A stretch of DNA of 32,143 nt from a virus. The notes beneath the pieces are model-generated. The model was not told where the DNA came from. It saw only the letters and a list, made by a program, of their open reading frames with translations, and made no database searches. A program made the translations under genes and the position numbers. Positions 2-30,477 of this stretch are shown here, in pieces; positions within the stretch are counted from its first letter, which is position 1; every line of letters starts with the position of its first letter. The stretch lies in the IMG/VR virus record IMGVR_UViG_3300045988_128600. The stretch is one strand, 5' to 3'.

Positions 2-3000
2 AATGGAACTATAACAGTAGATTAGTTCTTGAAAAAAGTAAATAATGTTGTCACTAAAGAAAATTTAATGGCTGATGCTACATCTAAAGCAGCAACTGTT
101 CTCGAGGATGACTTTGGTAAAAAAGTTAAAATTAACGGTGAGGATTGTCAAAAGCTTGCTGAAGATATGACTGAAGTTATTGTAACAACAGATAAATTAA
201 AAACTACTAATAAGCAAGTTGCTGGGTCTTATGAAAAAATAAAAGCTGCAATTGAAAATTATAAAAATGCTACTGGAGATTTAGGGTAGAAATTAATTTC
301 TATGGTTAATGGTTTTTCTTCATTGGCTATGGGATTGGCTTCCATTAAGAGTATTTTTGATACTTTATCTGATGAAGATATGTCATTTTTTGATAAATTT
401 TTATCAGTTAGTATATCTTTAAGTATGGGTATTTCTATGACCATTTCTGGCTTATCTACTATGACTAAAGCTTATAAAGAATTGGCAGAAGCTAAAACTT
501 TAGATAATATAAAGACTTCGCTTAATACGGCTATTACAGAAATTAATAATGTGGTAAAAGCTTAGGCAGCCGCCAGAACAGGAGCTCAAACAGCAGCTAC
601 AGATAGATAGGCATTGGCTGAAAGCAAACTTACAAAAAATATAATATTGTAGAATGCCGCTTGGTTAGTCCGTAATAAACAGATGTCCGCAACAGCAGCT
701 CTTGGATTAAGTTTAGCTGGTACTATATTAGTTGTAGTTGCAGCTGCAGCAGCTTTAGTACTTATATCTAAAGCAGTTTATAATTCTATTCATAAAGAAG
801 AAATAGCGGCTGAAGCAGCAGCTAAAGCGGCTTCAGATCTTGGTAATGCTTATGATGAGTGTCGTGAAAAGTATCAGCAAATGATTGATGAGTTTAATGA
901 ATATAAAGATGCCATAGATGCTTTGGATAATTTAACTAAAGGAACTCAAGAATATCGTGATGCTTTAGAGGAAGCTAATCAAAAGGCTTTAGAATTAATC
1001 CAAAATAATCCTGATAAATTTAATAAAGATGATTATTATTGGGATGATAATAAATTAGTTATTAAAGATACAGCTATGTCTCGTGTAGCTGAAACCAGTA
1101 GACAAGAGACTGTAGATTTATAGGCTACTTCTGCTATGGCTAATGCCAATAATGCTCAAGCATAGGCAAATTTATAGAAAAAAAATCTTGTCGATACTGT
1201 TACTGGTTCTTTACGCAACACAACTGGCGTAGATAAAACTATTGATGCTTATTTAAATAGCGATAGAGTTGCTGTTGATAAGGAAGATTTAAAAGATATC
1301 CTTAATCTTGATAACGATATAGATGATAAGGCTTTAGTTAATGTCCTTTGGCGCAATATTGATGCTTTAAATGAGTTAAGAAATACCATGGATGGGGTTG
1401 AAACCTCTTTTGATCTTGCTAGTAAAACCGCTGCAAGAGCACAATGGTCCGGATCTGGTAAAGAAAATACTAAAGCTGGAAAAATGGCGCTTGAAGGTGG
1501 CGGAAGATTATATAATAATCTTTATGCCGAGGGAGAAAATACTGTTAAAGGTTATTCATTAAGCACTAATTGGGCTGCTTATGAAAAAATGAATAATTTA
1601 AATTCTCTAAAAGGATATGAACGTTCTATTAAGAGCGATAAAGTTGAATATAGCTATTATGATGAGAATGGTGAAAAGATAACTTAGGAAATCAATAAAG
1701 AAGCTATTCAAATCGCGGCCGCAACCCAATATGCTAATGATAGAATTGGAGAAGCTTTAGATAGCTTATATCAAAATATTGCTAAAGCTAATAAAGATGG
1801 CCTTGATAGTGTAGGGAAATATTTATCAACAGAAAATTTTGATAATATGACAAAAGGCGAGCTTGAACAATTTTAGGGATTAACTGATGATTAGTTAAAA
1901 GAATATGGAATTGATAAACAAGCTATTGAAGAAGCTAAGAAAGTTGTATTTGATGAAATTGATGGTCTTAATGAAGCTATGAGCGATTAGATCACTGTTG
2001 GAGTGAATAAGACTTTAAAAGAAAATATTTAGAATTTTGGCTCTGAAGGTAAAGATGCCTATATTAGTGCTATCAATCAAATTGGTGAATCTATTGATTG
2101 GAATGCTTTGTCTCCAGAATCTTAGGCTGAAGCTTGGAATAAAATTTCTAATATTAATTGGTTTGATTTTGATGCTCAACGTCAAGCTGAAACTCTAATT
2201 AAAGAAATGGGCGGAGATGTTTCTGTTCTTGGAGATAATTGGGATAAAGCTTTTAGCTAGATGCGCAAAGCTGGAGATGTCGTTCCAGTATTAACTGATA
2301 TCAAAGAACGCCTTGATAAAATAGATAATATTACTAAAGATATGAAAATCGGTAAGATTTTAGAAAAAGAAGATTATGATACTTTAGTAAATTATAATAG
2401 TGAATTGGCAAGATATTTTGCTATTTTATCTGATGGGTCTGCTGTTTTTGTAGGTGATCCTCTTGATTTTCAGTAGATGGTTAAATCCACTAAGCAGGAT
2501 GAATTAAGTAGAACTATAAGTGGATACCAAAATGCTATTGATTAGTATTATGCGGGAGCTGAAGAACTTAAAAAAGCGGGTGGATTAGATTAGATTCGAG
2601 AAGCTGGTTCTGAAAATGTTAATAATCAATTAGCATTTTTAAAGACTTAGAATTATGATGAAACATAGATCTCTGATTGGATTGGTAAGCTTGCTAATTC
2701 TAGAGGATAGGATATTGACACTTTAAAAGCTATCGCTGAAGCAGTTAATGAAGTTGGTGACTCTTTCTTATCTAGCAAAGGTAATATAGAACAATATACA
2801 GCAAGTAGTCAATAGGCTATGAATGAATTGGCAATGACCGCCGACACTGCTCAAGAAGCAGAAGAAATGCTTAAAAATGGCGGTATCAATGAAATGGCTT
2901 ATAATATGAGTGCCATGCAGCGTATGTCTAGTGAAAAATGGGGAGATTTAGATCCTACTGAAGTAAACAAGTATGCTGACTCTTTGATGAAAACTGCTAA

Positions 3001-6000
3001 AAAATCTGAGTTATTAAGTAATGAGCTTGAAAATAATAAAGAAGCTGCTGAAGACGTTGCTCTTTATACCATGAAGATGAATAATGGTATAGAGAAATTA
3101 AGTGATAATTTTGATGGATGGGCTAATGTATTAAAGAAATCTGATTCTGCTTCACAAGAGTATTATGATGCAATGGTTGATATTAAAGATGCCATGTCTA
3201 ACGTTTTAGGTGTTTCAGAAGAATTTTTAAGTGATGATTTTATTATCAATAATTTAGATGATATTGCATTAGCGGCAAATGGTGACGCTGAAGCTATTGA
3301 TCGTTTAGCTTTAGCAGCCAGTAAAGATATTGTTATAAACTTAGATTTTGAAGATGAAACAACAAAACAAGAAGTTTTAAGTTTGTATGATGATTTGATG
3401 GCTGAAATGCCCGATCTTGAAGTTGGAGCTACTTTAGATGATAAAGAGTTCTTAACAAAACTTAATAATTTTGTAAAACAATCAGGAATGAGTGTTGAAC
3501 AAGCTTAGGCTTTTTTCAATAGTTTGGGATATGAACCAGAATTTGTAACAGATACAAAAACTGTAAAAAGAAGTATTCCTCAAGAAAGAACTCATACGGA
3601 TTATGAAATTACTGACGGAACTATAGATATTTTAGGGTAGGAATGGCACATTCCTACAATAGACAGACTTACAACTACTAGTGTTAGTGATTACGTTGAT
3701 GTAGATGAAAAAATTCAAGTTCCTGCTTTTGGTACAGATAATCCATAGGTAAAATCTTTAACTAAAAGATCAAGTGGAATAATGAACAATTTTTCAAGTG
3801 CCAACCCTGGAGCTAAAGGTTCAGGAGGCAAAGGGGGAAGTAAAAATAAGCCAACCAAAGAAGCTCTAACTAAAAAAAGCGATGTTGTTGATCGTTATAA
3901 AGAAATTACTGATAATATCAATGATACCACTCGTGCTTTAGATAAAGCTAATAAATCGGCAGATAGACTTTGGGGTAAGGCTCATCTTGATGCGATGGCT
4001 AAAAGTAATAAATTAACTTTAAAAGAAATTGATTTATTAAAACAAAAGCAAAAAGAAGCTTAGGCTTATTTAAAGACAGATAAAGCTACTTTATAGCAAG
4101 CTGCGAAAAAAGCTGGAATTACTTTCACATTTGATGAAGATGGTGACATTTCTAATTATACTGATTAGATGACTAAACTTTATAATTAGCTCATAGCTGC
4201 TTAGAATAAAGCAAATTCTTTTTCTACAAAAGATGCTCAAGACGCTTATAAAGAAGCAACTTTAGATCCGATTCAAGAGAAAATCAATGAGTTGAAAGAT
4301 GCTATTAAGCAATATGAAGATACAAGAGATTTAGTCGAAGAATTAACTGATGATATCCAAGATAAAATAAACGAATGGCAAGATAGAAATTATCAAATGC
4401 TTACTTATGAAGTTGAAATAAAGGTTCAATTAGATGAAAATGATACTAAAAAATTAGAATATTATTTTGATAAATTAAGTAATAATATTTATAAAGCCGC
4501 TGAAGCTCTTGGATATTTACAAGGTCAATTTGATCCAGTAATTAGTCAATTAGGAACTTATGAGAATTTCTATAGTCAGTTAAATAACGCTTATTCTAAT
4601 GGAGAAATTTCTCAAGAAAATTATATCGAAGGCTTACAAGACGTGTATGATAATACATTAGATAATTTAAATGCTTTGTAGGATTTAGATAAAGAAATGC
4701 TTGAATATTATGGTAATACTATAGATTTAGCAAATGATGAATTGTCTAAATATACAGATCATATGGAGCATTTGACTAGTGTATTGGATCATTATCGTTC
4801 TATTATTACTTTGTTAGGTAAAGATAAAGATTATGATAAAGTTTTATCAGTTTTAAATGGAACTGCTTAGACTAAGAAAAATAATTTTGATACTTCTAAA
4901 CAATGGTATGAAAGCTTGAAGCGTGAACGTGATGCAGCGGCCGCAGCTTTAGCCAGTTCAACTGATGAGGCTGAGCGTGAAGTGCTTCAAAAGAATTATG
5001 ATGCTATATTAGCTGCATTCGATGAAGCGGAAGAGGATATGCTTTCTAAAGCTGAAGAATATGGCGAAGCATTAAAAGAAATTCTTACTACAAAGATGGA
5101 GCAAGCTGCGGATGAAATGAATAAGCAATTAAGCACTACTAAAGTAAGTATTAATGGTAATAACTTTAATATTTCTGGTTGGGATGCTTTAAATGATGCT
5201 TTGGATAGAATGTCTTCTTATCAAGATGAATATTTAACAAAAACTAATTAGATTTATGAAATGAATAAACTACTTAATAATGTTAATTAGGCTATTGATA
5301 AAACAAATAATCAAGCAGCTAAAAATAGATATCAGCAATTTACTAAAGAGATTGAATAGTTAAGAGATAAAGATAAATTAAGTCAATTAGAATTAGAAAT
5401 TGCTTAGGCTAAATATAAAGTGCTTGAAGCGCAAATCGCGTTAGAAGAAGCTCAAAATGCAAAGTCTACAGTTAGATTACAACGTGATAATGAGGGTAAT
5501 TTTGGTTATGTGTATACCGCAGACCAAGAGAAAGTAAATGACGCGCAATAGGCTTTAGCAGACGCGGAAAATGATTTATATAACATTCGTCTTGATGCGA
5601 CAAATAAATATGGTCAACAAAAACTTCAATATGAGAAAGAGTTGGCTGAAAAACTTGCGGAACTTGATTAGAAGGCTGCGGAAGACGCGGTTTATCGTGA
5701 GACTACATATCAACAAGAACGCGCATTAGTAATTCAACAATATACTGATTTAATTACTACTGCTGGAAACCTTTACGCGAAAGCGCAAGAAGAGGATAGC
5801 AGAGTCGTTCAAGATGCTTGGGTAAATTCTTTTGATATTATCAAAGATAATAGTAATAGTTGGAAAGATACTATTACTGAAAATACTAATATTATCAATG
5901 ATACATTTAAAGAATGGCAAGACAGTATGGATGAAATTAGTAAAATTGTTGGTGATGATTTAAAAGATACTCAATAGAAAGTTAAAGATGTTACTGATGA

Positions 6001-6766
6001 AAGTAATAAACTTTATCAAGAAGTATCTAATAGAGTTATTCCTGCTCTTGAAAGCGAGTTAAGTTCTGTCCGTAGTGCTACTGAAGCTTGGGCACAACAT
6101 CGTCAGCAATTACTTGATACTATTAGAGCTTATGAAGAGCTTTTGAACGCTATTCAAGCGACATTGCGCGCTTAGAGCGGATTTGGTAGTAATAGTGATG
6201 AAGATACTGACTGGGCGGCTATGATGGGTACTGTGGCTTATGGTTCAGCAGAATATAATTAGTATAAAAATATTCGTGATGTCAGAATCGCGAATGGTAA
6301 AAAAATCAATTATGATACTACTGCTAGAGTTGATGCTTATTATAAATTATTAAGTGAAGGAAAAATTTCAGGTTTGCCGAATGGGAAATAGAATTTTACT
6401 CAACTTACTGATGAAGAATGGCGAAAACTTGTTGGATTTAAAAGTGGTGGTTATACTGGCACTTGGAATGATGATGGAAAATTAGCGTTCTTACATTAGA
6501 AAGAATTAGTTCTTAATGCTGATGATACAGAAAATATGTTAGCTTCTATCCAATTAGTTAGATAGATCGCGAAACAATTAGATTTCAATAGTCAACAAAT
6601 TTCTACTCTTTCTTCTTCTGGATTTACTGTTAGTTCTCAAGATGGAACATTAGAATAGAATGTTAGAATTGAAGCTAATTTCCCGAACGCTACTGATAGA
6701 TATGAAATTCAAGAAGCATTTAATACATTGGTTAATGTAGCTTCTCAGTATGCCAATAGAAAATAA
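2..6766 (+). CDS. Tail tape measure protein, 5'-partial (at least 2255 codons), translated with TAG as sense
   Basis: Frame 2 is open from nt 2 to the TAA at 6764-6766 with no TAA or TGA; only in-frame TAG codons occur (e.g. 23-25, 287-289, 563-565). The track ORFs 29, 302, 683, 1388, 2261, 2819, 3782, 4292 and 4916 are all frame 2. It has hydrophobic TM-like segments (683-790, 302-470) and Ala/Glu/Lys/Gln-rich coiled-coil. The C-terminus reads GGYTGTWNDDGKLAFLH(Q)KELVLNADDTENM, typical of siphophage TMPs, and a terminator follows directly. Confidence 0.8.
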
Positions 6767-6772
6767 AATTAA

Positions 6773-6808
6773 GGGTGAAGTCTTATGGGCTTCACCCTTT
6801 TTCTTTTT
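6773..6808 (+). terminator. Rho-independent terminator after the tape measure gene
   Basis: GGGTGAAG (6773-6780) pairs with CTTCACCC (6790-6797) around the loop tcttatggg. A T-run tttttcttttt follows, 6 nt after the TAA stop. Confidence 0.7.
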
Positions 6809-6867
6809 GGGTAATTATATTGAATAAAACTAATTAATTTTTTAGAAAATTATAGAGTAATGAGTAA

Positions 6868-6878
6868 AAGGAGGGATT
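6868..6878 (+). promoter_or_regulatory. Shine-Dalgarno (AAAAGGAGGG) for the TTG-initiated gene at 6882
   Basis: aaaaggaggg lies 4-6 nt upstream of TTG 6882 and there is no ATG alternative in frame. The same AAAGGAG-type SD recurs before genes at 10309, 10487, 15664, 18373, 18969, 20749, 28801, 30490 and 31183. Confidence 0.7.
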
Positions 6879-6881
6879 ATT

Positions 6882-9800: not shown

Positions 9801-10289
9801 ACTTATTTTAATTTAGCAACAGGAAATATTACAACAAACAGTATTACTGTAAATAGTGGAACATTTAAAGATGATATTATTATTAATTATACAGGTAGTA
9901 CTGGTAGCGGATGGACTTATGGAGATCAAAGTTTAAATTATATTTTAGATTAGATTGGAAAAGCCGCCAAAGAAGCTAGCGATTTGGCAACAGCTTCTAT
10001 CACATGGACTCAAGATATAGCTAATGCTTAGACAAGAGCAGACGAAGCTATTAACCAATTAACATATGTAAGTCAAATTCTTAATTATAGAAATGGGTCA
10101 GGAAATATTTATTTACATTATTGGAACCAAGAATCTAGCGCTAGATTTGTTGTTTAGAGCAATGGAACTGTCGGTATGATAGGAGGTACAGGGTATTATT
10201 TAAATGTAACTGATAATTCTATTTATTTACGAGGTCCAGTTGTAATAAATGGTTCATTAACGCTTAATGGAAAAGAAATTACTGGTTGA
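6882..10289 (+). CDS. Large tail-tip/baseplate structural protein (1135 aa; Dit/Tal-position gene), TTG start, TAG read through
   Basis: Frame 0 is continuous from TTG 6882 to TGA 10287-10289 with about 25 in-frame TAG codons. The track ORFs 6882, 7356, 8409 and 9741 are all frame 0. It sits directly downstream of the TMP with a strong SD. The sequence is Asn/Thr/Gly-rich and beta-rich, and the C-terminus reads IYLRGPVVINGSLTLNGKEITG. Confidence 0.75.
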
Positions 10290-10308
10290 AAAAAGGAGAA
10301 AAAGGAAA

Positions 10309-10485
10309 ATGAAAGAACAAGATATTAATTTTTTAAAAGTTTTATATAATACTCTCTCTTTAGTATCAACTAAAGGAGAAGATACTATTCTTATGGGAGA
10401 GTGTTTAAAACAATTAAGAGATTTTACAAATAGATTAGTGGATCTTCAAGAGGAGAAGAATAACGAAAATAATTAGGAGGGATAA
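10309..10485 (+). CDS. Small hypothetical protein (58 aa), predicted helical
   Basis: ATG 10309 is preceded by the SD aaaaggagaaaaagga. It reads through TAG 10474-10476 to TAA 10483-10485. The alternative ATG at 10267 (same frame) lacks an SD and overlaps the upstream gene, so it is disfavoured. Confidence 0.5.
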
Positions 10486-10486
10486 A

Positions 10487-18284: not shown

Positions 18285-18291
18285 TTTAAAT

Positions 18292-18954: not shown

Positions 18955-18968
18955 AGGAGTGAAAAAAA

Positions 18969-20630: not shown

Positions 20631-20691
20631 GGGCAATACTATTTAATAATAAATATAATTTTTTCTATTTTATATAGAAGAATGTTTTTAT

Positions 20692-20728
20692 GGGGAAAGA
20701 TGAAATATTCTTTCCCCATATTTTTTTT
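20692..20728 (+). terminator. Rho-independent terminator
   Basis: GGGGAAAGA (20692-20700) pairs with TCTTTCCCC (20709-20717) around the loop tgaaatat, followed by an 8-T run. Confidence 0.7.
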
Positions 20729-20748
20729 AGGATAGAAAGGAGTAAATT

Positions 20749-23700
20749 ATGTCTAAGATACGTTTTCGTCCTGTATAGGGTCCAGAAAAAAAAATAAAAG
20801 AATATCCTCAAAGCGATGGATATTTTTATGTGGCAACAGATACAGGCCGAGTTTATTTAGATACGGCAACTGAAAATAAAATGCCAATAGGGTCTAGTGG
20901 TGTTCAGGTAATTTACGGTACAGATAATACTGTAGAAATTGAATATGATGCGGATGAAAACCCAGTGGCTTATTTAATTCTTTTATCAAAATTATCTATA
21001 ACAAATTGTCATATAGATGATTTAATTTTAAATTTAGACGGATGTTTTTATCGAATTTTAGGATTTGCTTTAAATGAAAACCGCGAAGAATGCGCGAGAT
21101 GTGAAAAATTAACTGTCGCCGGGGCAGGCGGTGGCGGAGAAGGAGACTCTGAACAAAAAGTTTTAGGAACTGTTTCTTTAACAAGAATTCCACCCGATAG
21201 TCCTGTTGATGTTTTGAATGAAGAAAATGTTAAAGTAAAGGTATTGGTTAAATGTAGAACTGTTGGAGGAGTTCCACAATCTTCGTCTGTGCAAGGAATT
21301 ATAACTATAAGTGAAATTAAAAGTGCTACAGAAAAAGAAATTTATTATACTTCTCCTCCTACTACTTATGAGCACAATATTCCGCAAGAAATTGATTTAA
21401 CTAATATTTTAAGAAATTCATGTTCTAGTGAAATTAATTTTAGTATTTATTATAATCCTGATAAAGAAAATAATAGATTTTAGAAAAGCTCTGATACTAT
21501 TAATATTAATAAACATCATCTTTCTTTTAGTTGGAAAGAAAGTAGTTTTAGTAATGATAGTCCAGTTGACAATGGACAAATATCTGTTAGTTGGTTAATG
21601 TCTGAAGATATCGCCAGATCTGTTGAAGTTTATTTTGATGATTATTTAGTTTTAGATAGAACTTATAGTGATACTGATTCTTCTTCTGAAGATTCTTTTG
21701 TTATTACTCCTGATACAAATATATTAGGGACTGATAAAGTTTCTACTTTAAAAAATTATTTTACTCATGGTGAGCATATAATAAAAGCAAAGTTATATTT
21801 AATGAATAATTCTAAAAAAGGTGCAGGAACAGATTTTATTCAGAAAGAAATCGTTATTCAAGAACCAGGTAATAAAATGCCTTTAATTTGGGTACAAGAT
21901 TTTAAAACAGAATATTATACTTATGAGACAATAAGAATTCCTTTTAAAGTATTAGATCCAAATAATAATGGAGCTTTTATAACTCTTTATAAAAATGGTG
22001 TTCAAGTAGGAACTAGAGAATTAGATAGTTCGCAAGTTAGAGAATGGCAATATTGGGAAATTACTAATTTAACTGTAGATGATAGTTCTTATTATACTAT
22101 TAAAGTTGGTACTGATCCTTATTCTTATTCTCGTAATTTTAATTTTACAATTTTAATTGACCCTTTAAGAGATATGAAGTTAGTAAAAAAAGATAATTTA
22201 AAGGTTAATTTTATAGCTACTGGTCGTTCTAATTCAGAAGGAAAATTAGGTCGTGAAACTTATTTAATTAATAATAATAAATATGTAGAATTTAAAAATT
22301 TTAATTGGTATAATAATGGTTGGGTTTTTGATGAAAATAATACGACTTGTTTACGAGTAAGCAATGGTGCTGAAGTATCTATCCCAGTCGGAAAAATGGC
22401 TTTTAAAGATGAATCATCATCTGCTACTATTGAGATTCAATTTAAAATAAAGAATCCTCAAAATTATGCTAAAGTTATAACTAAATATACTAGATATAAA
22501 GTAAGTAAAGATAATTGGGAAGATAATGATGCTTGGGATAAATTTAAAGCCCAAAATAAATATCTTAATTATGATGAGTTTTTAACTAAAGAATATTTAC
22601 CAACAACTAATTATACTTATGATGATTTAGAATATAATAAAATAGAACAAGATTTTAATTTAAAGAATTTAGTTTGCGCATATGGTAAATTAGGGAATTC
22701 TGTCTCTCCTGGTATTTATTTTAGTCCATAGGATGCTGTATTTACAGCTAACGGGGCTCAAGAAACAGTTTCAGTTGATTTTATTGAAAATGAAATGCTA
22801 AATCTTTCATTTGTTTATACTAAAAAGAAAAGTGATATAGAAGGCGGAAATTCTAAATTATTAGAAATTTTTATGAATGGCGTTTTAACTAGTGTTGTAC
22901 GTTGTAGTAGTGATGTTTGGAATATTGATTCTGATTTCATTAAATTTATGTCTAATACTTGTGATATTGATATTTATAGTATTAGAGTTTATGATACAGA
23001 TTTAACTATTCCTGAAATAGTCCAAAATTACGCTTTTGATAAGAGAAGTATAAAACAGTGGGACCAAAAAGATCTTTATGAAAACAATACGGTATTAAAA
23101 GATGATGTATTTTCTTATACTAAAATGAAAAAGTATAATGATAATCATCCAACTGAACCTTTAATGCCCTATATTATTTTAAGGACTACTAAAAATAATA
23201 AAAATAATACGGATAATAGATTACCTTATTCTAAAGCAAAAGGAAGCTAGGAAGGAACTTTAGAATTTGTTAACACTGCTTTAGACGCTGCTTACAATAG
23301 TGGTGAATTAGAAAAAGTTGCTATAAAAGAAGGATGGAAACCTGTAATCGAAAAAAATGAAGAAACATAGGAAGAAGTAGTAAAATATACTGTGGTATAG
23401 AATTATTATATGCATCATTGTCCTAGTTTTATAACTGTTCTTAATGGATGTACTTTCCAAGTTCAAGGTACTTCTTCACAATTTTATCCTCGTCGTAATT
23501 ATAAAGCTAAATGCAAAGAATCAATGCTTTTAAATAGAGGCCCATTTGCTGAAGACTATAAAAAAGCAGGAGACTAGTATAATGAAGATATAACTAAACA
23601 TCCTTGCTATTTAGAGTGGTTTTATATGGATAATAAAACAGTTGGTACTACTAAATTTACTTTAAAAATAGATTTTATGGAATCTTCTGGAGATTATAAT

Positions 23701-26700
23701 AGAGGATTTGCTAATTTAGTTAACGAGATTTATTCTAAACATCCAGTAGAAGACTATAAGGATTCTTTTGATAATTATAATTTATATGGAAATTTAGAAG
23801 ATTATCGCACTTCGGTAAAAGGATTCCCCGTTTTAGCTTTCCATTATATGTCCAACGATGATAATACTTACTCTAAGGAAAATAGTAATAACTGTATTTT
23901 TATTGGCAAATATAATATGTTATTAGATAAAGGCTCAGATGAATGTTTTGGATTTAAACCAAATAAAAAGATTTTACAAAATCAAATTACGGGCAATCCT
24001 AAAGTAAGAGATATGGCAGAATGTTGGGAATTTTAGAACAATTCAAGAACTTTTTGCTCTTTCCGCGACCCTTGGAATCGTTATAAATTATCATTTAGAA
24101 ATCCTAATATGGTAATCCCTCCAGATGGAGATAATCCTGAATTAGTTAAAGGCGCTCCAAAAGTCGTTGATTCTTTTGAACCAAGATATAATCCAAATGA
24201 TGATTTAATTGCTGATAATTTATTTAGTTTAAAAGAGTGGCTTGATCCAGATGGGACATAGACTAAGATTGTTGGGGAAGAATTAAAAAATGTAGCCCCA
24301 GATAGACTTACTAAAAAAGAAATAGTTGATGAAATTACTGGTATAAAATCTATTAAATGGATTATAAAGAACCCAGACGGAGAAGAAATAGAATTTAATG
24401 TTGCTAATGATACAAGTAAACAAGAATTACTTTTAGCTTTAATGTCTAACTGGGAAGACGCAGTTAGTTGGGTATGGAGTACTTGTTTAGATTGCGATAT
24501 TGAATTTGATGATGGATAGAAATTAAAAATTCCATCTATGGGCATTTATACTAAAGTTGATGGATTAGCTGAAGCTATATATATTCCTAATGTCTATTAT
24601 GTTGAAGATGGAGTTAATGAAAATGGAAAAATTATTTATAAATTAGCTTCTGAAGAATATAACTCTGAAACAAGATATTATAAGTAGATTAATGAAAATA
24701 ATAGTTTAAAGTATGTAAGCATAAAACTTACAAATAATTCAGATAAAGTATATAAAGCAAATATTTATTATCTTTTAACTGATAGTAAAAATGAAATTTA
24801 TGTATTAAGTTCTGATAAATTTAATTCTTCTTTAGACTATTATTCTTTTAATAAAAATGAAGAAGGTATTGAGGAAAGATGGAAATTACCTAATCCAGTA
24901 ACCTATGGCTCTATTACTTATACTAAAGATAGTAAAGAATACCGTCAAGCTAAATTTAAAAATGAATTAAGTAATTTCTTTGATATTGAATATTTAGCTT
25001 CTTACCTTTTAATGACAGAAATTTTTGAATGTTATGATTCTCGTGGAAAAAATGCAATGTTTGCTTCTTGGGGACCTCAAAAAGGCAATATTCAAAAATC
25101 TACTGGTAAACAACATTATGTTTGGTATCCTATCTTTTATGATATTGATACTCAATTAGGTATTAATAATACTGGTATCCCATCCTTTGAATACTATATT
25201 GATGCTACTGAAGAAGGAAGTTTTTCAACTAATGATAGTGTTCTTTGGAATAATTTTTACACTTTCTTTAGAAGCAAGATGGTGGATAAATATAAGCAAT
25301 TAATGGGAACTCAAAATAATTCTTATAGTCCAAATGATTCAAGAGTAAATAAAATTTTTACTAAAGGAGCAGGAAGCGGAGCTAAAAAGAGTGATATCGT
25401 AGATAAATGGTATCGTACTGATCCATCGGTATTTCTTGATAGTTATGCAGTTTTGGGAGACCGACCAATTATTGCTTTAAGTTTAGACGAAGAATTTAAG
25501 TATATTATTCCAACAAACTCTAAAGCTGAAAATATGCCAGTGTTTGGTCGTTTAACTGATGGAGGTTCATATGAGGTTGAAGATGATAAATATTTTTATG
25601 CTTTGCAAGGAGATAGAAATCTTTATCGCGCGCAATTTTTAGCTAATCGTCTTAATTACATTGACTCTTGGTTGACTGTTGGCACTTATGCCAGAAATGG
25701 CGGAGGAAGCTATATTAGAAGTCGTATTTCTGCGAACAATCCTAAGAATACATCAGATAAATGGATTGAAGGTACTAACACTCAAAATATGGAAGGATTA
25801 ATTACAAATTCTCAGTATTGGAAAAATGGTGCTGAATTCGAAGAAAAAAATCATATGTTTGATGGTGAGTATTGGATTAACATGGAACCCGCGCGTAATG
25901 CCTATGTTACTATTGGTACAGATGGAGAGAATTTTCCTTCAAAAAAATATAATGGTTTAGAACCGGTTAAATATGTAGCTCCTGATATTAAAAAAGGAAT
26001 TATGAGTAGCGGTAATTATAAAGAACAATTATATTACATTTATGGAATGGATCAAATGAAATCTCTTGGTGATTTAAGCAAATTATATTTCCAAGAGTTT
26101 GCAGCTGAAGGAAAAATGGAGCGTTTAACTGATTTATTATTAGGATATGATGGAAAAGATGAAAGCGGTAATGAATATTTTAATAATGATGTAAATGACT
26201 GGTCTTTTTCAAAAGGCGGAATGCCTTTACTTAAAGAAATGAATCTTTGTAATATTAACTTTAAAAAAGACTAGGGGGCATTAGATTTAACTAAAAGTGA
26301 AAAACTTGAAAACTTTAGAAATACTAAATCTAATATCCCGAGAGTTAATTTTGCTCCTGGAGTAGCTTTAAATACTTTATATTTAACCAATCGAACAAAT
26401 TATTTAAGTTTAATAGAAGCTAATTTATTAACGAAATTAATAACTAACTATATATATCCTGAAAAAAATCCAATTACTGGAAAACTTGAGGTCTCAGATG
26501 AAAATCGTGGTTTATATATTCAAGATCTTACTGATGCTGAAGAAGGAAAAGAAAAAACCGAGATAAGAACTTTTGATATTCGAGGCGGTAATTTAGGTTA
26601 TAATAGTTATGAATTGTTACGCAAATATATTTCAGCTAGTAAAAATAGTAAATTAGATTTATCTAATTGTATTATTAATTTAAATAATGTTTAGTGGAGT

Positions 26701-28494
26701 CCATATAGACTTCTGACTGACACTAAAACAACTCTTGATCCAGAAAGAAAATCTTATTATAGAGATAATGGACATTTTTAGTTGGTAGCTATTCCAAAAG
26801 ATTAGGTTAATAAAATAACAAAATCTGATATTAAAAATAATTAGATTTATTATTTAGATACAATAAATGGAGACAATAATAATCATAGTATAATAACTGA
26901 TTATAATTTATTAATTGATATTTATAATAATTATAGGGGTCTTAATACTAATAAGCCAGAAATATCTGGTGTTATGTATATAAAAAATAATAATTAGATT
27001 GATGAATCTATTATCTAGAATGAGTTATAGGATAAATACCCTGATTTAATAATTTTTGTAGAAAATGTTAAACAAGAATGTTCTGCCAAGTTTATTTTAG
27101 AAAAAGAAGATATTGATGGAGTGTTAATTTAGGAGGTTCTAAAAACTTAGAAATTACCCTTATCTAGCAGTAAATTCTTTGATGATCCAACAAATTCTTC
27201 TAGCGAAACTTATATTTCTTTTGGTAGTTTACAAGAAAAAATGCCAACTTATGATTTTAAAGGTTGGGAAGATGATACGGGAAAATTAGTAATTACTGTT
27301 GGAAAAAACGTAAATGAAGAAGATGTTGTTTTAAAAAGCGATTGGAATTCTTTGTCTTTACAATCTAATAAAATGGATTATATTTTTAAAGCGAGATTTG
27401 AGCGCAAATCTTATACGATCACTTTCGTTAATGGTGACCGCGTTATTAATGATTCAACTGTAAAGAAAGTATTTAATTATGGTGAAAGAATTACTGTTCC
27501 AGAAGAATTCTATTATTTTAATAATACAGAAGTATCTGATTTACCAGAAGGCGAAGACCCATTAGAATGGACTTGGAAATAGGCTGGATGGGCGGATAAA
27601 GATGGAGTTAAAATTGATTTAACTAAACAATTAGCCTATGCTGACCGCGAATTCTACGCTGTTGGAGAGCCGATTAGTGTTTATGATAATATTTTAACTA
27701 ATGATTCTACTCATAAATATTATGATATTATAAATTCTGATGGAGAGTTATCGTTTGTAATGACTGACTTAGCTAAGAATTTAAAAGGCAAAATTACTTT
27801 ACCTACAACTTATAATGGTTAGCCAATTACAAGAATTAAATATAGCCAAGTTAACCCATCAGCAGCAGTTGGTATTCAAGTAAATCCTAATATCACTGCG
27901 ATATTTTTTGCTCCAAAAGATAGCAATAAAATTTCTGTAATAGATGATTATGCTTTTATTTTAGATAGTGGGTTAGAATATTTCCAATTTAGTGATTGTT
28001 TAAAGAAAATTGGTACTAAAGCATTTTATCAATGTCCTTTAAGTCGTAATAACATAATTCCTTATTCTTCTTCTACTGAAGGTTTGACTTTTGGAGCTCA
28101 AGCATTTTATCAAAGTAAGATGGGTTCTTATTCTCCTTATAATTTAATTATAGAGGGATGCAAAGACGGTATTCTTAATTTTGATATAAATGCATTTTCT
28201 GGTCAGACAATTTTAAATATGTCTGGTAATTAGTTTAAAGGTTATACTGGCGCTATTCAAGTATAGATTGGTACTAATAAACACCCAATTAAACAAATTA
28301 CAGCAGATAGCTCTGGCAATATTTTTACTCCTCGTCAAACTGGTATGCCTACAGTGGCTAATGGATACACAGGTCGTTTTAGATATTATTATGTTGCTAG
28401 TTATGGTGAAAGTATTAAAAATACTTTACACAATATTTATGAAGCAATGATATCTAATAGAGCGAATTTTGAAGAAGAGCCTATTGTAAAGTGA
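20749..28494 (+). CDS. Giant multidomain tail fibre / adhesin (about 2581 aa), TAG read through
   Basis: ATG 20749 lies 7 nt after the SD AAAGGAG. Frame 1 is open to TGA 28492-28494; I checked this codon by codon across 21481-21600, 24034-25014 and 26272-28494. The track ORFs 20830, 21598, 22795, 23626, 25012 and 27241 are all frame 1. The N-terminus carries the anchor motif (IRFRPVQGPE...YFYVATDTGRVYLD). A LamG/ConA-like stretch follows (NSKLLEIFMNGVLT...CDIDIYSIRVYDTDLTIPEIVQNY). A CotH-like stretch is present (KNAMFASWGP...HYVWYPIFYDIDTQLG). The C-terminal part has BspA-type LRR-like repeats (IGTKAFYQCPL...LTFGAQAFYQS...FDINAFSGQTIL). Domain calls are by eye only. Confidence 0.7.
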
Positions 28495-28503
28495 GGATAA
28501 ATT

Positions 28504-28704
28504 ATGGAAAAAGAAATTGTTTATAGATATATGGGTTCTAATGGTATTATTGAATCTTCTATATAGTTGACAGGAATTCCTGCGACTACTTTGTATAGAT
28601 TAATAGCAGATTACAATAAGAAATTAACGAGAGATGGAAAAGAATTTTTTTCCATCTCTCCTTTAGTCCCTGAAAGTGAATTAAAAGAATGGTATGAGGT
28701 TTAA
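28504..28704 (+). CDS. Small protein (66 aa) with a helix-turn-helix-like segment
   Basis: ATG 28504 follows a weak SD (tgagga). It has one in-frame TAG at 28564 and a TAA at 28702-28704. The segment IQLTGIPATTLYRLIADYNKKL resembles an Xis/AlpA/MerR-type HTH. A strong terminator follows. Confidence 0.5.
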
Positions 28705-28740
28705 ATAGGCCAGAATACATTGATTTAAATATAAAAAAAA

Positions 28741-28782
28741 TTAGGTTAAATAGGAAAAGAAACTATTTAACCTAATTTTTTT
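28741..28782 (+). terminator. Strong rho-independent terminator, possibly bidirectional
   Basis: A perfect 13-bp stem, TTAGGTTAAATAG (28741-28753) against CTATTTAACCTAA (28763-28775), with the loop gaaaagaaa. It is flanked upstream by an 8-A run and downstream by a 7-T run. Confidence 0.75.
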
Positions 28783-28800
28783 AGAAAGGAAGAGATAGAT

Positions 28801-30477
28801 TTGATAGTTAAAAATGATAGTGTTATCGAACAAGCTAAATGGGAAGAACTTCAAAAGAAAATCAATACTTTAGCTAAAGATAATAAAATAAAAAACGTTA
28901 ATGGAAAAATCGTTGAAATAAAATCTATTGAAGACTATTATAGTAATATTACTGGTATCGTTCAAATGAAGAAGTTAGATCCATCTGTTCTTCGCATACC
29001 TTTAGATGAGCCTATTATAAATATAAATGCTGATACTCGTCAAATTGAATTAACTAAAGAATTTGGAAAAACTCAATTACTTACTGTTGAAAATGATCAT
29101 TTAGCAGAAACAATTTATTTTCAAATTGATAGATATTTTGATTTACAAGATTTAGCAGCTGATGATATTAAAATTTATATTTAGTATTATCTAAATGATC
29201 AAATTCAAGGTTATTCTGAAGCTATTTGCCCTGATATTGGTACTGCTGGAAAATTAATTTTTGGTTGGCAAATTAGTGATGAAGTAACTAGTGAATCTGG
29301 TACTTTATAGTTTTCTATTATTTTCTTCAAAAAGAATCCAAAAGATAATAATAATTTAATGTATGTGTTTAATACATTACCTGCGCAAATGGTTATCAAT
29401 AAAACTTTAGACATTGATGAAGATTTAGTTACTGCGCAACCTGTTGATTATTTAACTGGGTATTTAGAAAGTTTAATCGATTCAAAGAAATCCGCGGGCT
29501 TTGGAGTCCCTGATAATGTGGCTTTCTTGACAAGTATTTTAAATAATAAATCAGTTTATTTAACTGGTGATAAATTATATGCTTTAGCTTATAATGATAC
29601 TTTAAACAATCCAGATAATACTACTATTGAATATAAATGGATTTGTAATTATAGAGGAACTAATACTGAATTAAAAAATGGTATTGGTTATGAATACAAA
29701 AAAATTGTTGATGATAATAGTATCTTTAGTGGAGATATGGCTTATAATGAAAAATTGACCTATTTTACTAAAAATGGAGATACTTATATTAATAGTAGTA
29801 GTGATATTAATCTTGAAAATTATGTTGCTAAAAAGAATGACCTTTATTTAAAAGTTCAATATTGTGAAGTTGATGGATGCGGAAGTTATAGTGTGACAGC
29901 ATTTGGCGCAACCGCGAATCAAGTAAGTAAAGAAGTTAAATGGGCTGGATTAGCTATTTCTGTTGAAGGTATTAGCGAAGATTTTAAAATTATTCTTGAT
30001 CCCTCCCCTGATAATGGATGTTATTATGGCTCTTCTAATACAATTACTGCTATTGGATAGAATGATGAAGGAGTTCAATGTACTTATCTTTGGACAAAAA
30101 ATGGGTCTGAATTTAGTAATGAAAAAACTGTAACTTTAACTCAAGAAGATAATTACACTTTAACGGTTCATGGGTATAAAAATAAAGATAATATAGATTA
30201 TGGTCCAATTAATTTTACCAATTATTTTGACCCTATTAATTTAGTACCTACTGGTGAAGTAAAAACTGAAAATGGAAAATATATTGTTAATATCACTAAT
30301 ACTAGTGAGTTGGGAAATGGAATTTATGAATATTAGTGGAAAAATGCTGAAGGTGTTACTCAAATAACTACTTCTGGGACTAATAACGCAATAGAAATAA
30401 ATGAAAATATTACTCAAGTGGCTGTCATTATTAAAAAAGGTGAAAGAAATTCAAAGCCAGGAGTACTTACGATATAA
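28801..30477 (+). CDS. Tail fibre / baseplate protein (558 aa) with Ig-like C-terminal repeats, TAG read through
   Basis: TTG 28801 follows the SD gaaaggaag. Frame 1 is continuous to TAA 30475-30477, with the track ORFs 28801 and 29359 both frame 1 and in-frame TAGs at e.g. 29182 and 30058. The N-terminal 110 aa (DHLAETIYFQIDRYFD...) are paralogous to the next gene. The C-terminus (CTYLWTKNGSEF...YTLTVHGYKNKD) looks Ig-like. Confidence 0.7.

What the first reader, a model, noticed from the sequence alone, without database searches (positions are those of the whole stretch)
1715..29497. Over-representation of GC-only palindromic motifs (CCGCGG, GCGGCCGC) and a recurrent in-frame GCGGTSCGC nonamer
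In about 32 kb at roughly 30% GC, CCGCGG occurs 5 times (7975, 10659, 10684, 11496, 29492) against about 0.4 expected, always in a WCCGCGG context. GCGGCCGC occurs twice (1715, 4937) and GCGGCCGG once (9378), against about 0.01 expected. GCGGT(C/G)CGC occurs three times (11498, 13509, 18047), each time in frame encoding Ala-Val-Arg in a different structural gene (ETAVRS, SAVRRS, SAVRS). Each of those uses the GC-rich synonymous codons that the genome normally avoids. This looks like selection for a DNA-level site. Candidates are a target of a restriction-modification or other modification system, a nuclease or recombinase site, or a structural or packaging signal.
Basis: seen in the sequence. 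Interest (0 to 1): 0.5.

Follow-up and report, generated by a model that had tools for sequence, protein, structure and literature searches.

The report
Short GC word bias, not sites
The GC-only palindromes in this AT-rich, TAG-recoded gut phage are real and far above chance, but they are by-products of a weak genome-wide pressure favouring the four-letter words CCGC/GCGG and CGCG, not discrete functional sites.

Summary
Observation confirmed. All motifs are present (one coordinate is off by 1). They exceed a codon-aware null that keeps proteins and codon usage fixed: CCGCGG 5 vs 0.57, GCGGCCGS 3 vs 0.10, GCGGTSCGC 3 vs 0.01.

CCGC (41 vs 11.7), its complement GCGG and CGCG carry the signal. 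Pooled over 20 genomes, CCGCGG is exactly what its 5-mers predict (120 vs 120.2).

The bias occurs in all three codon phases, in genes of both orientations, in every 10-kb bin of 69 kb of one relative's genome, and in all 19 close relatives. It is absent from T4 and phage K.

Sites turn over. CCGCGG occupies 24 positions in the clade, and 1 is fixed. Gains equal losses. Every one-step route into the words is 1.7-5.9x faster than background, transversions included. Exits are 0.54-0.76x at three of four CCGC positions.

That indicates a weak, strand-symmetric directional pressure on DNA (odds about 2.6). It does not fit conserved sites, rare-codon clusters or a single deamination-repair route. 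Its cause is unresolved. No methyltransferase or Vsr signature was found in about 95 kb of the roughly 195-kb genome.

Verdict: a real, lineage-specific compositional signature of moderate interest.

The parts
1..32143 (.). Whole window. Synonymous-site enrichment of the tetranucleotides CCGC (41 vs 11.7 expected), GCGG (56 vs 35) and CGCG (33 vs 13), spread over nearly all genes.
   Evidence: all three codon phases. (1.3-3.3x in 10 of the 12 genes; about 85 site clusters, mean spacing 375 bp, CV 1.10).
7975..7980 (.). CCGCGG in TCC GCG GAC (Ser-Ala-Asp), gene 6927-10289.
   Evidence: Present in 13 of 20 clade genomes; variants are CTGCTG, CCGCAG and CCGCTG.
10659..10664 (.). CCGCGG in ACC GCG GAT (Thr-Ala-Asp), gene 10487-13366. 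The only near-fixed site.
   Evidence: Present in 19 of 20 genomes. Local third-position polymorphism is ordinary. The protein segment is absent in the sister lineage.
10684..10689 (.). CCGCGG in GTC CGC GGT (Val-Arg-Gly), a different codon phase from the other four.
   Evidence: Present in 17 of 20 genomes. Not retained outside the clade.
11496..11506 (.). CCGCGG overlapping GCGGTCCGC, in ACC GCG GTC CGC (Thr-Ala-Val-Arg).
   Evidence: Present in 12 of 20 genomes; alternates with ACTGCGG, GCGGTTCGC and CCGCAG.
29492..29497 (.). CCGCGG in TCC GCG GGC (Ser-Ala-Gly), gene 28771-30477.
   Evidence: Present in only 4 of 20 genomes, with 8 variants.
1715..1722 (.). GCGGCCGC in GCG GCC GCA (Ala-Ala-Ala).
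   Evidence: Lies outside the region aligned with relatives.
4937..4944 (.). GCGGCCGC in GCA GCG GCC GCA GCT (a five-Ala run).
   Evidence: Ten synonymous variants among 20 genomes. The usual GCT GCT encoding is avoided: GCTGC 12 vs 26, TGCTGC 0 vs 10.9.
9378..9385 (.). GCGGCCGG in GCG GCC GGT (Ala-Ala-Gly).
   Evidence: Present in 5 of 20 genomes, with 11 variants.
13509..13517 (.). GCGGTCCGC in GCG GTC CGC CGG (Ala-Val-Arg-Arg), four rare codons in a row.
   Evidence: The nonamer is kept in 18 of 20 genomes. The protein context is unrelated to the other two nonamers.
18048..18056 (.). GCGGTGCGC in GCG GTG CGC (Ala-Val-Arg).
   Evidence: Eleven variants among 20 genomes.

Best explanation
Shown. 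The palindromes are not units in themselves. Three overlapping four-letter words are each made roughly two to five times commoner than the proteins and the codon usage require: CCGC, its complement GCGG, and CGCG. CCGCGG, GCGGCCGC and GCGG-T-CCGC are simply what appears where these words overlap or abut.

The excess is written into synonymous positions. It occurs in all three codon phases, in genes of either orientation, across at least 69-95 kb of a roughly 195-kb genome, and in all 19 close relatives.

Individual sites are gained and lost continually while their density stays constant. Single-base changes that create one of the words become established 1.7-5.9 times more often than comparable changes elsewhere. 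Changes that destroy CCGC are somewhat rarer than background at three of its four positions.

So a weak, constant, strand-symmetric directional pressure acts on the double-stranded DNA sequence. The odds are about 2.6 per site, equivalent to a scaled selection coefficient near 1.

Inferred. The pressure is a fixation bias, not one specific kind of mutation. It is either weak selection for a high density of a short word, or biased correction of mismatches in the heteroduplexes formed when these mosaic phages recombine. If it is selection, the word would be read by a DNA-handling protein. Candidates are the phage's own replication and recombination machinery (it encodes DnaE, DnaB-like and DnaG-type proteins, RecJ-like, RuvC-like) or the host's end-processing nuclease.

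A milder CCGC/GCGG bias is shared by the wider phage family. The extra CGCG preference is specific to this clade, and that is what makes CCGCGG stand out here.
For: - Codon-aware null: CCGC 41 vs 11.7 (z 8.6), CGCG 33 vs 12.9, GCGG 56 vs 35. The top 5-mers are CCGCG at 8.4x and CGCGG at 4.3x, exactly the sub-words of CCGCGG.
- All three codon phases are enriched: 3.5x, 3.1x, 6.0x.
- There is no hexamer-specific signal. CCGCGG is 120 vs 120.2 from its 5-mers. CCGC is 1.99x over its 3-mers and CGCG is 1.50x.
- There is no general clustering of GC-ending codons (lag-1 z=0.8). The excess appears only when the intervening dinucleotide is GC (2.1x) or CG (4.85x).
- Clade-wide: CCGC 4-5x and CCGCGG 2-9 per roughly 20 kb vs 0.2-0.9 expected in every close relative.
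- The opposite-strand replication module shows CCGC 2.7x, CGCG 1.6x and CCGCGG 40 vs 6.3.
- Every 10-kb bin of 69 kb from one relative's genome is 1.6-2.6x enriched.
- Turnover: 24 CCGCGG positions, 1 fixed, 9 singletons, 3-9 per genome. Gains equal losses: 415 vs 420.
- Strand symmetry: [T]GC>[C]GC has the highest T>C rate of 16 contexts, and GC[A]>GC[G] has the highest A>G rate.
- Gains into CCGC, GCGG and CGCG are 1.7-3.2x baseline at every measurable position. The transversions GC[T]G>GCGG and C[A]GC>CCGC are 5.6x and 5.9x. Control routes into CCGG, CCGA and CCGT are 0.45-1.1x. Losses from CCGC are 0.55, 0.76 and 0.54x at positions 1, 2 and 4.
- Method controls: T4 gives CCGC 29 vs 25.9 and CCGCGG 0 vs 1.2. 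Phage K gives CCGC 5 vs 6.2. The same test recovers phage K's GATC avoidance, 0 vs 67.5.
- Sixty other family members: CCGC median 1.77x, CGCG 0.96x.
Against: - The cause is not identified. No protein that reads CCGC or CGCG was found, and the host is unknown.
- Rate estimates rest on parsimony over a neighbour-joining tree of recombining genomes. Several positions have few events (5-20).
- Total flux at the favoured sites is higher than pure selection predicts: 1.5-3.3x against about 1.2x. So raised mutability contributes.
- Loss at CCGC position 3 and at GCGG position 3 is not reduced (1.26x and 1.12x).
- The comparison of terminal and internal branches, which could have separated fixation bias from mutation bias, was not significant (P=0.67).
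- The three Ala-Val-Arg nonamers are still more frequent than pairwise context predicts (3 of 3 tripeptides).
- GCGG-to-CCGC pairs at 0-2 nt spacing exceed random placement (2, 2, 1 vs 0.07). The 4-mer model may therefore not capture everything.
- Non-coding DNA is too scarce to test (5 vs 2.0).
Confidence: 0.6

Rival explanations
1. Context-dependent mutation or repair input bias. The phage replicase or a sequence-specific repair enzyme makes W>S changes preferentially next to GC or CG. One example would be a Vsr-like very-short-patch endonuclease coupled to a cytosine methyltransferase that recognises CCGC or CCGCGG. The words then accumulate without any selection.
For: - Gain rates are raised more than loss rates are lowered.
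- Total substitution flux at these sites is 1.5-3.3x that of other sites, closer to a mutation-bias prediction than to pure selection.
- On the coding strand the T-derivatives of CCGC are depleted: CTGC 0.71, TCGC 0.79, CCGT 0.54. A T:G to C:G repair would produce that.
- The enriched words are exactly the sub-words of one hexamer. In E. coli, from my own knowledge of the Bhagwat & McClelland and Merkl et al. 1992 analyses, sub-words of CCWGG are raised by Vsr repair in the same way.
- The phage encodes its own DnaE-type polymerase.
Against: - Transitions and transversions at all four positions, on both strands, converge on the same words. GC[T]G>GCGG is 5.6x and C[A]GC>CCGC is 5.9x. Vsr acts only on T:G mismatches.
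- The complementary derivatives GCAG and GCGA are not depleted.
- There is no CpG hypermutability: C>T is 5.6 both at CpG and at non-CpG. So there is no sign of 5-methylcytosine decay for a repair system to counter.
- Losses from CCGC are reduced at three positions.
- No methyltransferase or Vsr motif was found in about 95 kb.
Confidence: 0.25
2. CCGCGG, GCGGCCGC and GCGGTSCGC are discrete functional DNA sites kept by selection: a target of a restriction-modification or other modification system, a nuclease or recombinase site, or a packaging or structural signal.
For: - All three motifs are far above a codon-aware null.
- Sites 10659 and 10684 are kept in 19 and 17 of 20 genomes, and GCGGTCCGC at 13509 in 18 of 20.
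- All three Ala-Val-Arg tripeptides use the nonamer.
- GCGG and CCGC abut at 0-2 nt more often than random placement predicts.
Against: - The hexamer has no excess over its 5-mers (1.00).
- Twenty-three of 24 CCGCGG positions are polymorphic and 9 are singletons.
- The conserved pair lies in a lineage-specific protein loop.
- Spacing is Poisson-like.
- Phages normally avoid restriction targets, as this one does for six 4-bp palindromes.
- No methyltransferase signature was found in about 95 kb.
- The nonamers sit in unrelated proteins and are two different words.
Confidence: 0.05
3. By-product of word avoidance. The phage avoids TGCA, GCTGC/TGCTGC, CTG-containing words and other restriction-type targets. 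Replacing the T or A at those junctions with C or G creates CGC/GCG words passively.
For: - TGCA is the most depleted 4-mer (35 vs 69). TGCTGC is 0 vs 10.9, GCTGC 12 vs 26, CTGC 57 vs 82 and GCTG 85 vs 113.
- The T>C rate at [T]GCA is 2.5x baseline.
- Poly-Ala runs escape GCTGC by using GCG GCC GCN, which yields GCGGCCGC.
Against: - [T]GCG>CGCG is raised 2.2x and C[T]GCG 2.6x, although no TGCA is involved. TGCA accounts for only about a quarter of the excess TGC>CGC events.
- When T is avoided before GC, C and G rise more than proportionally while A does not.
- CTGC depletion is weak or absent in the replication module (0.75-1.06), yet CCGC is still 2.3-3.2x there.
- GCAGC is enriched, not avoided.
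- Gains also occur at positions unrelated to TGC, for example CCG[T]>CCGC at 3.2x and G[T]GG>GCGG at 2.8x.
Confidence: 0.1
4. Translational effect. This would be codon-pair preference, or clusters of rare codons that slow the ribosome at particular places in structural proteins.
For: - Twenty-eight of 41 CCGC sites are in one phase: nCC GCn, a rare C-ending Thr, Ser, Ala or Pro codon before Ala.
- The late structural module shows a stronger bias than the replication module: 2.0-2.6x vs 1.6-1.8x.
Against: - Enrichment is seen in all three phases.
- The substitution pattern is symmetric between a word and its reverse complement.
- GC-ending codons are not autocorrelated (lag-1 z=0.8).
- Sites are not positionally conserved.
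Confidence: 0.03

Closest known systems
Genome-wide oligonucleotide skews caused by very-short-patch (Vsr/Dcm) repair in E. coli. From my own knowledge: CCWGG-related tetranucleotides are over-represented and CTAG is depleted (Bhagwat & McClelland 1992; Merkl et al. 1992).
   Same: A dispersed, non-site-specific excess of the sub-words of one short GC-rich palindrome. It is created at many positions by a directional bias, not by conservation of individual sites. T-containing one-off derivatives are depleted on the coding strand.
   Different: Here transversions as well as transitions feed the words. The complementary derivatives are not depleted. There is no excess C>T at CpG. No vsr or cytosine-methyltransferase signature was found in about 95 kb.
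Restriction-site avoidance in phage genomes (short palindromes counter-selected).
   Same: It is lineage-specific, acts on short words at synonymous sites, and changes between sister lineages. The same genomes do show classical avoidance of TGCA, GATC, GTAC, CTAG, TCGA and CCGG.
   Different: The sign is opposite. CCGC/GCGG and CGCG are enriched, not depleted. CGCG and GCGC, typical restriction targets, are strongly avoided in other family members: L070 GCGC 1 vs 21.7, L059 2 vs 13.
Chi-type over-represented recombination signals. From my own knowledge: B. subtilis AGCGG, S. aureus GAAGCGG, L. lactis GCGCGTG. They are GC-rich words with a GCG core in AT-rich Bacillota.
   Same: Short GC-rich words containing GCGG or CGCG are kept at high density by weak per-site selection with free turnover of positions. 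The phage's nearest annotated DnaE relatives infect Bacillota.
   Different: No single 5-8-mer stands out above its sub-words. Both orientations are enriched in both gene orientations. The host and its Chi sequence are unknown.
Primase initiation words. From my own knowledge: T7 GTC within GGGTC/TGGTC, E. coli DnaG CTG.
   Same: A trinucleotide core with flanking preferences that is needed repeatedly on both strands. The phage encodes its own DnaG-type primase and DnaB-like helicase. The mean spacing of site clusters is about 375 bp.
   Different: This is purely a resemblance. No specificity data exist for this primase, and spacing is random, not regular (CV 1.10).
Mobile GC clusters of yeast mitochondrial DNA and in-frame palindromic elements such as Rickettsia RPEs.
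   Same: GC-rich palindromic sequence inside an AT-rich genome, sometimes in frame.
   Different: Those are inserted elements tens of bases long. Here there is no inserted sequence. The motifs arise by synonymous point substitutions in codons that align one-to-one with relatives.

Membership tests
Type II restriction-modification target (SacII CCGCGG / NotI GCGGCCGC) under selection in the phage | The full recognition sequence deviates from expectation beyond what its sub-words predict. | tested here: not met
   CCGCGG 120 observed vs 120.2 expected from its 5-mers over 20 genomes. GCGGCCGC occupies only 3 positions in the clade, all in Ala runs.
Type II restriction-modification target (SacII CCGCGG / NotI GCGGCCGC) under selection in the phage | A cognate methyltransferase is encoded by the phage or its host. 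| tested here: inconclusive
   No PCQxFS, (D/N/S)PP(Y/F/W) or FxGxG methyltransferase signatures in about 95 kb of the roughly 195-kb genome. The one DPPF is inside a RecD-like helicase. The remaining roughly 100 kb and the host were not examined.
Type II restriction-modification target (SacII CCGCGG / NotI GCGGCCGC) under selection in the phage | The motif is methylated in virion DNA. | not testable with these tools
   Needs SMRT or nanopore kinetics or current data.
Vsr/very-short-patch-repair-driven word skew | Only the T:G to C:G route (T>C, or A>G on the other strand) into the target is accelerated. | tested here: not met
   The transversions GC[T]G>GCGG (5.6x) and C[A]GC>CCGC (5.9x) are accelerated as well.
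Vsr/very-short-patch-repair-driven word skew | The methylated cytosine is a C>T hotspot, which is the lesion the system repairs. | tested here: not met
   The C>T rate is 5.6 at CpG and 5.6 at non-CpG. At C[C]GC it is 4.2, lower and not higher.
Vsr/very-short-patch-repair-driven word skew | T-containing one-off derivatives are depleted on both strands. | tested here: inconclusive
   CTGC 0.71, TCGC 0.79 and CCGT 0.54 are depleted. Their complements GCAG 1.26, GCGA 1.14 and ACGG 0.95 are not.
Chi-like or other oriented over-represented signal | One specific 5-8-mer is enriched beyond its sub-words. | tested here: not met
   CCGCG is only 1.24x over its 4-mers and CCGCGG 1.00x over its 5-mers. 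All flanks of CCGC are enriched.
Chi-like or other oriented over-represented signal | Orientation bias relative to replication or DNA ends. | tested here: inconclusive
   Both CCGC and GCGG are enriched in genes of both orientations. Origin, terminus and genome ends are unknown.
Rare-codon cluster / translational pause site | GC-ending (rare) codons cluster along the gene irrespective of the word they form. | tested here: not met
   Lag-1 co-occurrence is 253 vs 243.5, z=0.8. The excess appears only with GC or CG between the third positions.
Rare-codon cluster / translational pause site | The effect is confined to one reading phase and one strand. | tested here: not met
   All three phases are enriched. 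The substitution bias is reverse-complement symmetric.
Inserted GC-rich palindromic mobile element | Extra sequence is present relative to relatives that lack the motif. | tested here: not met
   Relatives without the motif have the same codons with synonymous point differences and no length change.
Restriction-site avoidance (side feature of the same genomes) | Short palindromes are depleted relative to a codon-aware null. | tested here: met
   TGCA 35 vs 69, GATC 54 vs 90, GTAC 44 vs 74, CTAG 39 vs 66, TCGA 21 vs 38, CCGG 8 vs 15. This is consistent across the clade.

The most novel reading that the evidence does not exclude
CCGC/GCGG, extended to CGCG in this clade, is the recognition word of a DNA-transaction protein. 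It is kept at about one site per 375 bp on an otherwise 29% GC genome by weak positive selection. Two candidates are the initiation word of the phage's own DnaG-type primase and a short Chi-like signal that tames the host's AddAB/RecBCD-type nuclease. The different GC words favoured or shunned in sister lineages (GCGC 3x in one, near zero in another) would then track changes in that protein or in the host. This would be a case of a phage genome being positively 'seeded' with a short word. That is the mirror image of restriction-site avoidance.
Probability: 0.15. Interest if true: 0.6.

Novelty: new variant of a known kind. Interest (0 to 1): 0.35.

Why it matters
Phage genomes are known to shed short words that host defences recognise. 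A reproducible, lineage-specific enrichment of a short GC word is much less familiar. Here it is maintained by turnover and visible as accelerated gain along a phylogeny.

If the pressure is selective, it points to an unrecognised sequence-reading step in a large, uncultivated, TAG-recoded family of gut phages. That step could be priming, end protection or recombination, and the word could help predict hosts or enzyme specificities. If it is a repair or conversion bias, it is an example of context-specific GC-biased fixation in a virus.

There is also a practical lesson. Striking long GC-only palindromes in AT-rich genomes should be tested against their own sub-words, and against a codon-aware null under the correct genetic code, before being called sites.

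Tried and rejected
1. **Standard genetic code.** It gives fragmented ORFs. With TAG read as sense, 96% of the window is coding, so all frame analyses were redone under that code.
2. **Chance or composition.** Rejected by Markov models and synonymous shuffles.
3. **Artefact of the null model.** Rejected. T4 and phage K give ratios near 1, and the known GATC avoidance is recovered.
4. **Rare-codon or GC3 islands.** Rejected.
5. **Paralogous protein segments behind the three nonamers.** Rejected; the contexts are unrelated.
6. **An unusually conserved region around 10659 and 10684.** Rejected. The sites are also not retained outside the clade.
7. **The WCCGCGG flank rule.** Rejected.
8. **Regular spacing of sites.** Rejected, CV 1.10.
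9. **RNA hairpins from GCGG...CCGC pairs.** Rejected. The excess is only at 0-2 nt spacing, which is too short for a loop.
10. **Near-identical or protein-level relatives of a structural protein in GenBank phages.** None found. DnaE finds only relatives at 40-42% identity: Phass-1, Enterococcus phages and SPbeta-like phages. The Phass-1 paper does not mention methyltransferases.
11. **PHROGs and Pfam on ten TAG-free ORFs.** Almost nothing informative.
12. **Literature searches for CCGCGG or CCGC enrichment in phages, and for VSP-related word skews.** Nothing relevant in the held library.
13. **Host signature through bacterial NrdD loci.** Uninformative. Most hits look like phage contigs binned into MAGs, and the likely genuine Erysipelotrichaceae chromosomes lack the signature.
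14. **Terminal versus internal branch test for fixation bias.** Not significant.
15. **Hunt for a methyltransferase or Vsr** by walking about 63 kb beyond the window. None found.

Full report
**1.

CCGCGG is at 7975, 10659, 10684, 11496 and 29492. GCGGCCGC is at 1715 and 4937. GCGGCCGG is at 9378. The window is 29.1% GC with a strong positive GC skew throughout.

**2. The genetic code had to be fixed first**

Under the standard code the window breaks into short ORFs. If TAG is read as a sense codon, it resolves into 13 long ORFs on the + strand, up to 2,582 aa, covering 96% of the sequence.

Nine contain a rare GCG (Ala) codon preceded by a C-ending codon and/or followed by a G-starting codon.

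**3. A codon-aware null**

I shuffled synonymous codons within each gene, which keeps every protein and each gene's codon usage. This gives CCGCGG 5 vs 0.57, GCGGCCGS 3 vs 0.10 and GCGGTSCGC 3 vs 0.01, all P<0.001.

Ranking all k-mers against the same null shows that the signal is carried by shorter words:

| Word | Observed | Expected |
|---|---|---|
| CCGC | 41 | 11.6 (z 8.6, the top 4-mer) |
| CGCG | 33 | 12.8 |
| GCGG | 56 | 35 |
| CCGCG | 14 | 1.7 |
| CGCGG | 12 | 2.8 |

These are exactly the sub-words of CCGCGG. CCGC is enriched in all three codon phases (3.5x, 3.1x, 6.0x), so this is not a codon-pair effect.

Total CpG is unchanged (459 vs 443). CCGG, TCGA, ACGT and CCGT are depleted, and GGCC, CGGC and GCCG are neutral. 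So this is not a general preference for G+C runs.

GC-ending codons are not autocorrelated (lag-1 z=0.8). The excess appears only where the fixed dinucleotide between two third positions is GC (2.1x) or CG (4.85x).

**4. The long motifs have no signal of their own**

Pooled over the window and 19 relatives, CCGCGG is observed 120 times against 120.2 expected from CCGCG, CGCGG and CGCG. CCGCG is 1.24x over its 4-mers. CCGC is 1.99x and CGCG 1.50x over their 3-mers. The range of the effect is therefore about four bases.

The two GCGGCCGC sites are Ala runs written GCG GCC GCN. The usual GCT GCT encoding is avoided: GCTGC 12 vs 26, TGCTGC 0 vs 10.9.

The three nonamers are two different words in unrelated protein contexts. 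They remain the least well explained item. The window has exactly three Ala-Val-Arg tripeptides and all three use GCG GTS CGC. The only other one found in about 40 kb of extra sequence is GCG GTT CGG. GCGG followed by CCGC at 0-2 nt spacing occurs 2, 2 and 1 times against 0.07 for random placement.

**5. Relatives**

IMG/VR holds a clade of 19 contigs, 97-197 kb long, sharing 83-95% nucleotide identity with the window. There are also many more distant family members.

Every close relative shows CCGC at 4-5x, CGCG at about 2x and CCGCGG at 2-9 copies per roughly 20 kb against 0.2-0.9 expected. Relatives at 73% protein identity or less have CCGC at only about 2x and essentially no CCGCGG. Some of them enrich GCGC about 3x, and others almost lack it: L070 1 vs 21.7, L059 2 vs 13.

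Two unrelated AT-rich phages give ratios near 1 with the identical pipeline. T4 has CCGC 29 vs 25.9 and CCGCGG 0 vs 1.2. Phage K has CCGC 5 vs 6.2. The pipeline also recovers phage K's GATC avoidance, 0 vs 67.5. Sixty other family members have a median CCGC of 1.77x and CGCG of 0.96x.

So a mild CCGC/GCGG bias is a family trait. The focal clade has a stronger version plus a CGCG preference, and that combination generates CCGCGG.

**6. The bias is genome-wide**

Walking out of the window shows that about 5 kb downstream the genes switch strand into a nucleotide-metabolism and replication module. By sequence it encodes:
- NrdD, NrdG, dUTPase and a RuvC-like protein;
- a DnaE-type polymerase and a RecD-like helicase;
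- a RecJ-like protein, a DnaG-type primase and a DnaB-like helicase;
- a ligase and GyrA/B-like topoisomerase subunits.

In that module, counted in the coding orientation, CCGC is 2.7x, GCGG 1.5x, CGCG 1.6x and CCGCGG 40 vs 6.3 over 12 genomes.

Tiling 69 kb of one genome gives 1.6-2.6x in every 10-kb bin. The late module is higher than the replication module. CCGCGG is 9 vs 2.0 overall. In the window, the three words together are 1.3-3.3x enriched in 10 of the 12 genes, and site spacing is Poisson-like (CV 1.10).

**7. Conservation or turnover**

CCGC alternates with CTGC, and GCGG with GCAG or GCTG, with up to 11 variants per site.

CCGCGG occupies 24 aligned positions. One is fixed and nine are singletons, yet every genome carries 3-9 copies. 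Gains and losses of the words balance, 415 vs 420.

The two best-kept sites, 10659 and 10684, lie in a region of ordinary synonymous polymorphism. They sit in a protein loop that is absent from the sister lineage.

**8. What kind of force**

I polarised third-position changes on a neighbour-joining tree by parsimony. This shows:

- (a) [T]GC>[C]GC has the highest T>C rate of 16 contexts. Its reverse complement GC[A]>GC[G] has the highest A>G rate. The process is therefore strand-symmetric.
- (b) TGCA avoidance contributes, with [T]GCA at 2.5x. But [T]GCG at 2.2x and C[T]GCG at 2.6x cannot be explained that way.
- (c) Every measurable one-step route into CCGC, GCGG or CGCG is accelerated. Transitions are 1.7-3.2x. 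The transversions GC[T]G>GCGG and C[A]GC>CCGC are 5.6x and 5.9x. Routes into CCGG, CCGA and CCGT are not accelerated (0.45-1.1x).
- (d) Losses from CCGC are 0.55, 0.76 and 0.54x at three positions and 1.26x at the fourth.
- (e) C>T is no faster at CpG than elsewhere.

Convergence of different mutation types at all positions on the same words, with partly slowed exit, is what a fixation bias produces. That bias could be weak selection or biased gene conversion. The implied odds are about 2.6, a scaled coefficient near 1.

It is not what a single lesion-repair route such as Vsr (T:G only) would give. There is also no 5-methylcytosine decay signal for such a system to counter.

Caveats:
- Parsimony on recombining genomes is crude, and some classes have only 5-20 events.
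- Total flux at these sites (1.5-3.3x) exceeds the pure-selection prediction of about 1.2x, so raised mutability is also present.
- A comparison of terminal and internal branches was not significant.

Selection and mutation or repair bias are therefore not cleanly separated.

**9. Search for a cause**

- No DNA methyltransferase or Vsr catalytic signatures occur in about 95 kb of the roughly 195-kb genome.
- The phage carries its own DnaE, DnaB and DnaG replisome and recombination enzymes.
- Its nearest annotated DnaE relatives, at 40-42% identity, are gut phage Phass-1 and phages of Enterococcus and Bacillus. This hints at a Bacillota host. The Phass-1 paper predicts a Clostridia-class host and does not mention methyltransferases (PMC10607447).
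- Bacterial loci retrieved through NrdD did not reveal a host with the same signature. Most were probably phage contigs binned into MAGs.
- The held literature has no report of CCGC or CCGCGG enrichment in phages.

**10. Comparison with known systems**

In behaviour, the closest parallel is the VSP-repair word skew of E. coli, where sub-words of a GC-rich palindrome are raised genome-wide. Two defining features were tested and not met, namely T:G-only input and a deamination hotspot, so I do not file it there.

It is the mirror image of restriction avoidance, which the same genomes also display for six 4-bp palindromes.

Chi-like and primase-word readings are compatible with density selection. 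They remain untested resemblances. No longer specific word and no orientation bias were found.

**11. Verdict**

The finding is a real, strong and reproducible compositional signature. The inference of discrete SacII- or NotI-like sites is not.

The thing to explain is a lineage-specific, weakly driven excess of CCGC/GCGG and CGCG. Its mechanism is open: I put fixation bias at about 0.6, mutational input bias at about 0.25, avoidance by-product at about 0.1, and discrete sites at about 0.05.

Interest is moderate (0.35). Positive enrichment of a short word in a phage is unusual and cleanly documented here, but it is a compositional effect with no identified reader protein.

Noticed in passing
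window 1-32143: The window uses TAG as a sense codon (code-15-like). Under the standard code, ORFs are fragmented. With TAG coding there are 13 long + strand ORFs of up to 2,582 aa covering 96% of the sequence. There are 0-45 in-frame TAGs per gene, and gene 18963-20630 has none.
   Followed up: yes
L070, L073, L085, L235 (TGA-sense fit); L044, L047, L051, L076, L083 (standard code): Members of the same broad phage family fit different genetic codes: TAG-sense, TGA-sense or standard. Recoding therefore seems to have switched repeatedly within the family.
   Followed up: partly
window, whole; also L001-L039, L146-L157: Short palindromes are depleted against the codon-aware null: TGCA 35 vs 69, GATC 54 vs 90, GTAC 44 vs 74, CTAG 39 vs 66, TCGA 21 vs 38, CCGG 8 vs 15. 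TGCTGC is 0 vs 10.9, and the Shine-Dalgarno-like AGGTG is 7 vs 20.5. This is a classical restriction-avoidance-type signature sitting alongside the enrichment.
   Followed up: partly
L037/L064; L070; L059; L088; L293: Sister and distant lineages have their own GC-word signatures. GCGC is about 3x enriched in L037 and L064. It is nearly absent in L070 (1 vs 21.7, with CGCG 4 vs 15) and in L059 (2 vs 13). GGCC is 1 vs 9.3 in L088. L293 lacks almost all CpG-containing G/C 4-mers and all GATC.
   Followed up: no
window 683-1120 vs L098 (contig 110853): Contig 110853 is 100% identical in protein to the window here, but only about 85% identical in DNA over the rest of the aligned region. That indicates mosaicism from recombination within the clade.
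   Followed up: no
L104 15385-20417; L147; L303; L337 (beyond the window's 3' end): About 5 kb past the window the genes switch strand into a module encoding a RuvC-like protein, dUTPase, NrdG/NrdD, a dNMP kinase, DnaE-type Pol III alpha, a RecD-like helicase, a RecJ-like protein, a DnaG-type primase, a DnaB-like helicase, ThyX, a GIY-YIG endonuclease, an ATP-dependent ligase, GyrA/B-like subunits and PhoH. It also has an endolysin carrying 9 in-frame TAGs. These identities were read from sequence motifs by eye and were not confirmed with profile searches.
   Followed up: partly
L161 and L310 (contig IMGVR_UViG_3300045988_118370, 197,006 bp): The NrdD locus lies at 183-197 kb of this contig, and the adjoining module continues at 1-16.8 kb. 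The contig therefore appears to be a complete, circularly closed or permuted genome of about 197 kb.
   Followed up: no
L228-L297 (genome-contig hits to NrdD): NrdD homologues at 70-87% identity sit in MAGs labelled Mollicutes, Bacteroidaceae, Lachnospiraceae, Treponema, Prevotella and even Methanobrevibacter, often on 100-170 kb contigs, some of them TAG- or TGA-recoded. These are probably phage contigs mis-binned into bacterial and archaeal MAGs.
   Followed up: partly
window 10675-10695: A 6-bp inverted repeat, AAGCAA...TTGCTT, brackets the CCGCGG at 10684, inside the coding sequence of gene 10487-13366. It may be chance.
   Followed up: no
window 11498, 13509, 18048; L098 ~1700: All four Ala-Val-Arg tripeptides seen use GCG for Ala and a CGN codon for Arg, not the usual GCT and AGA. 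That is more than pairwise codon context predicts.
   Followed up: partly
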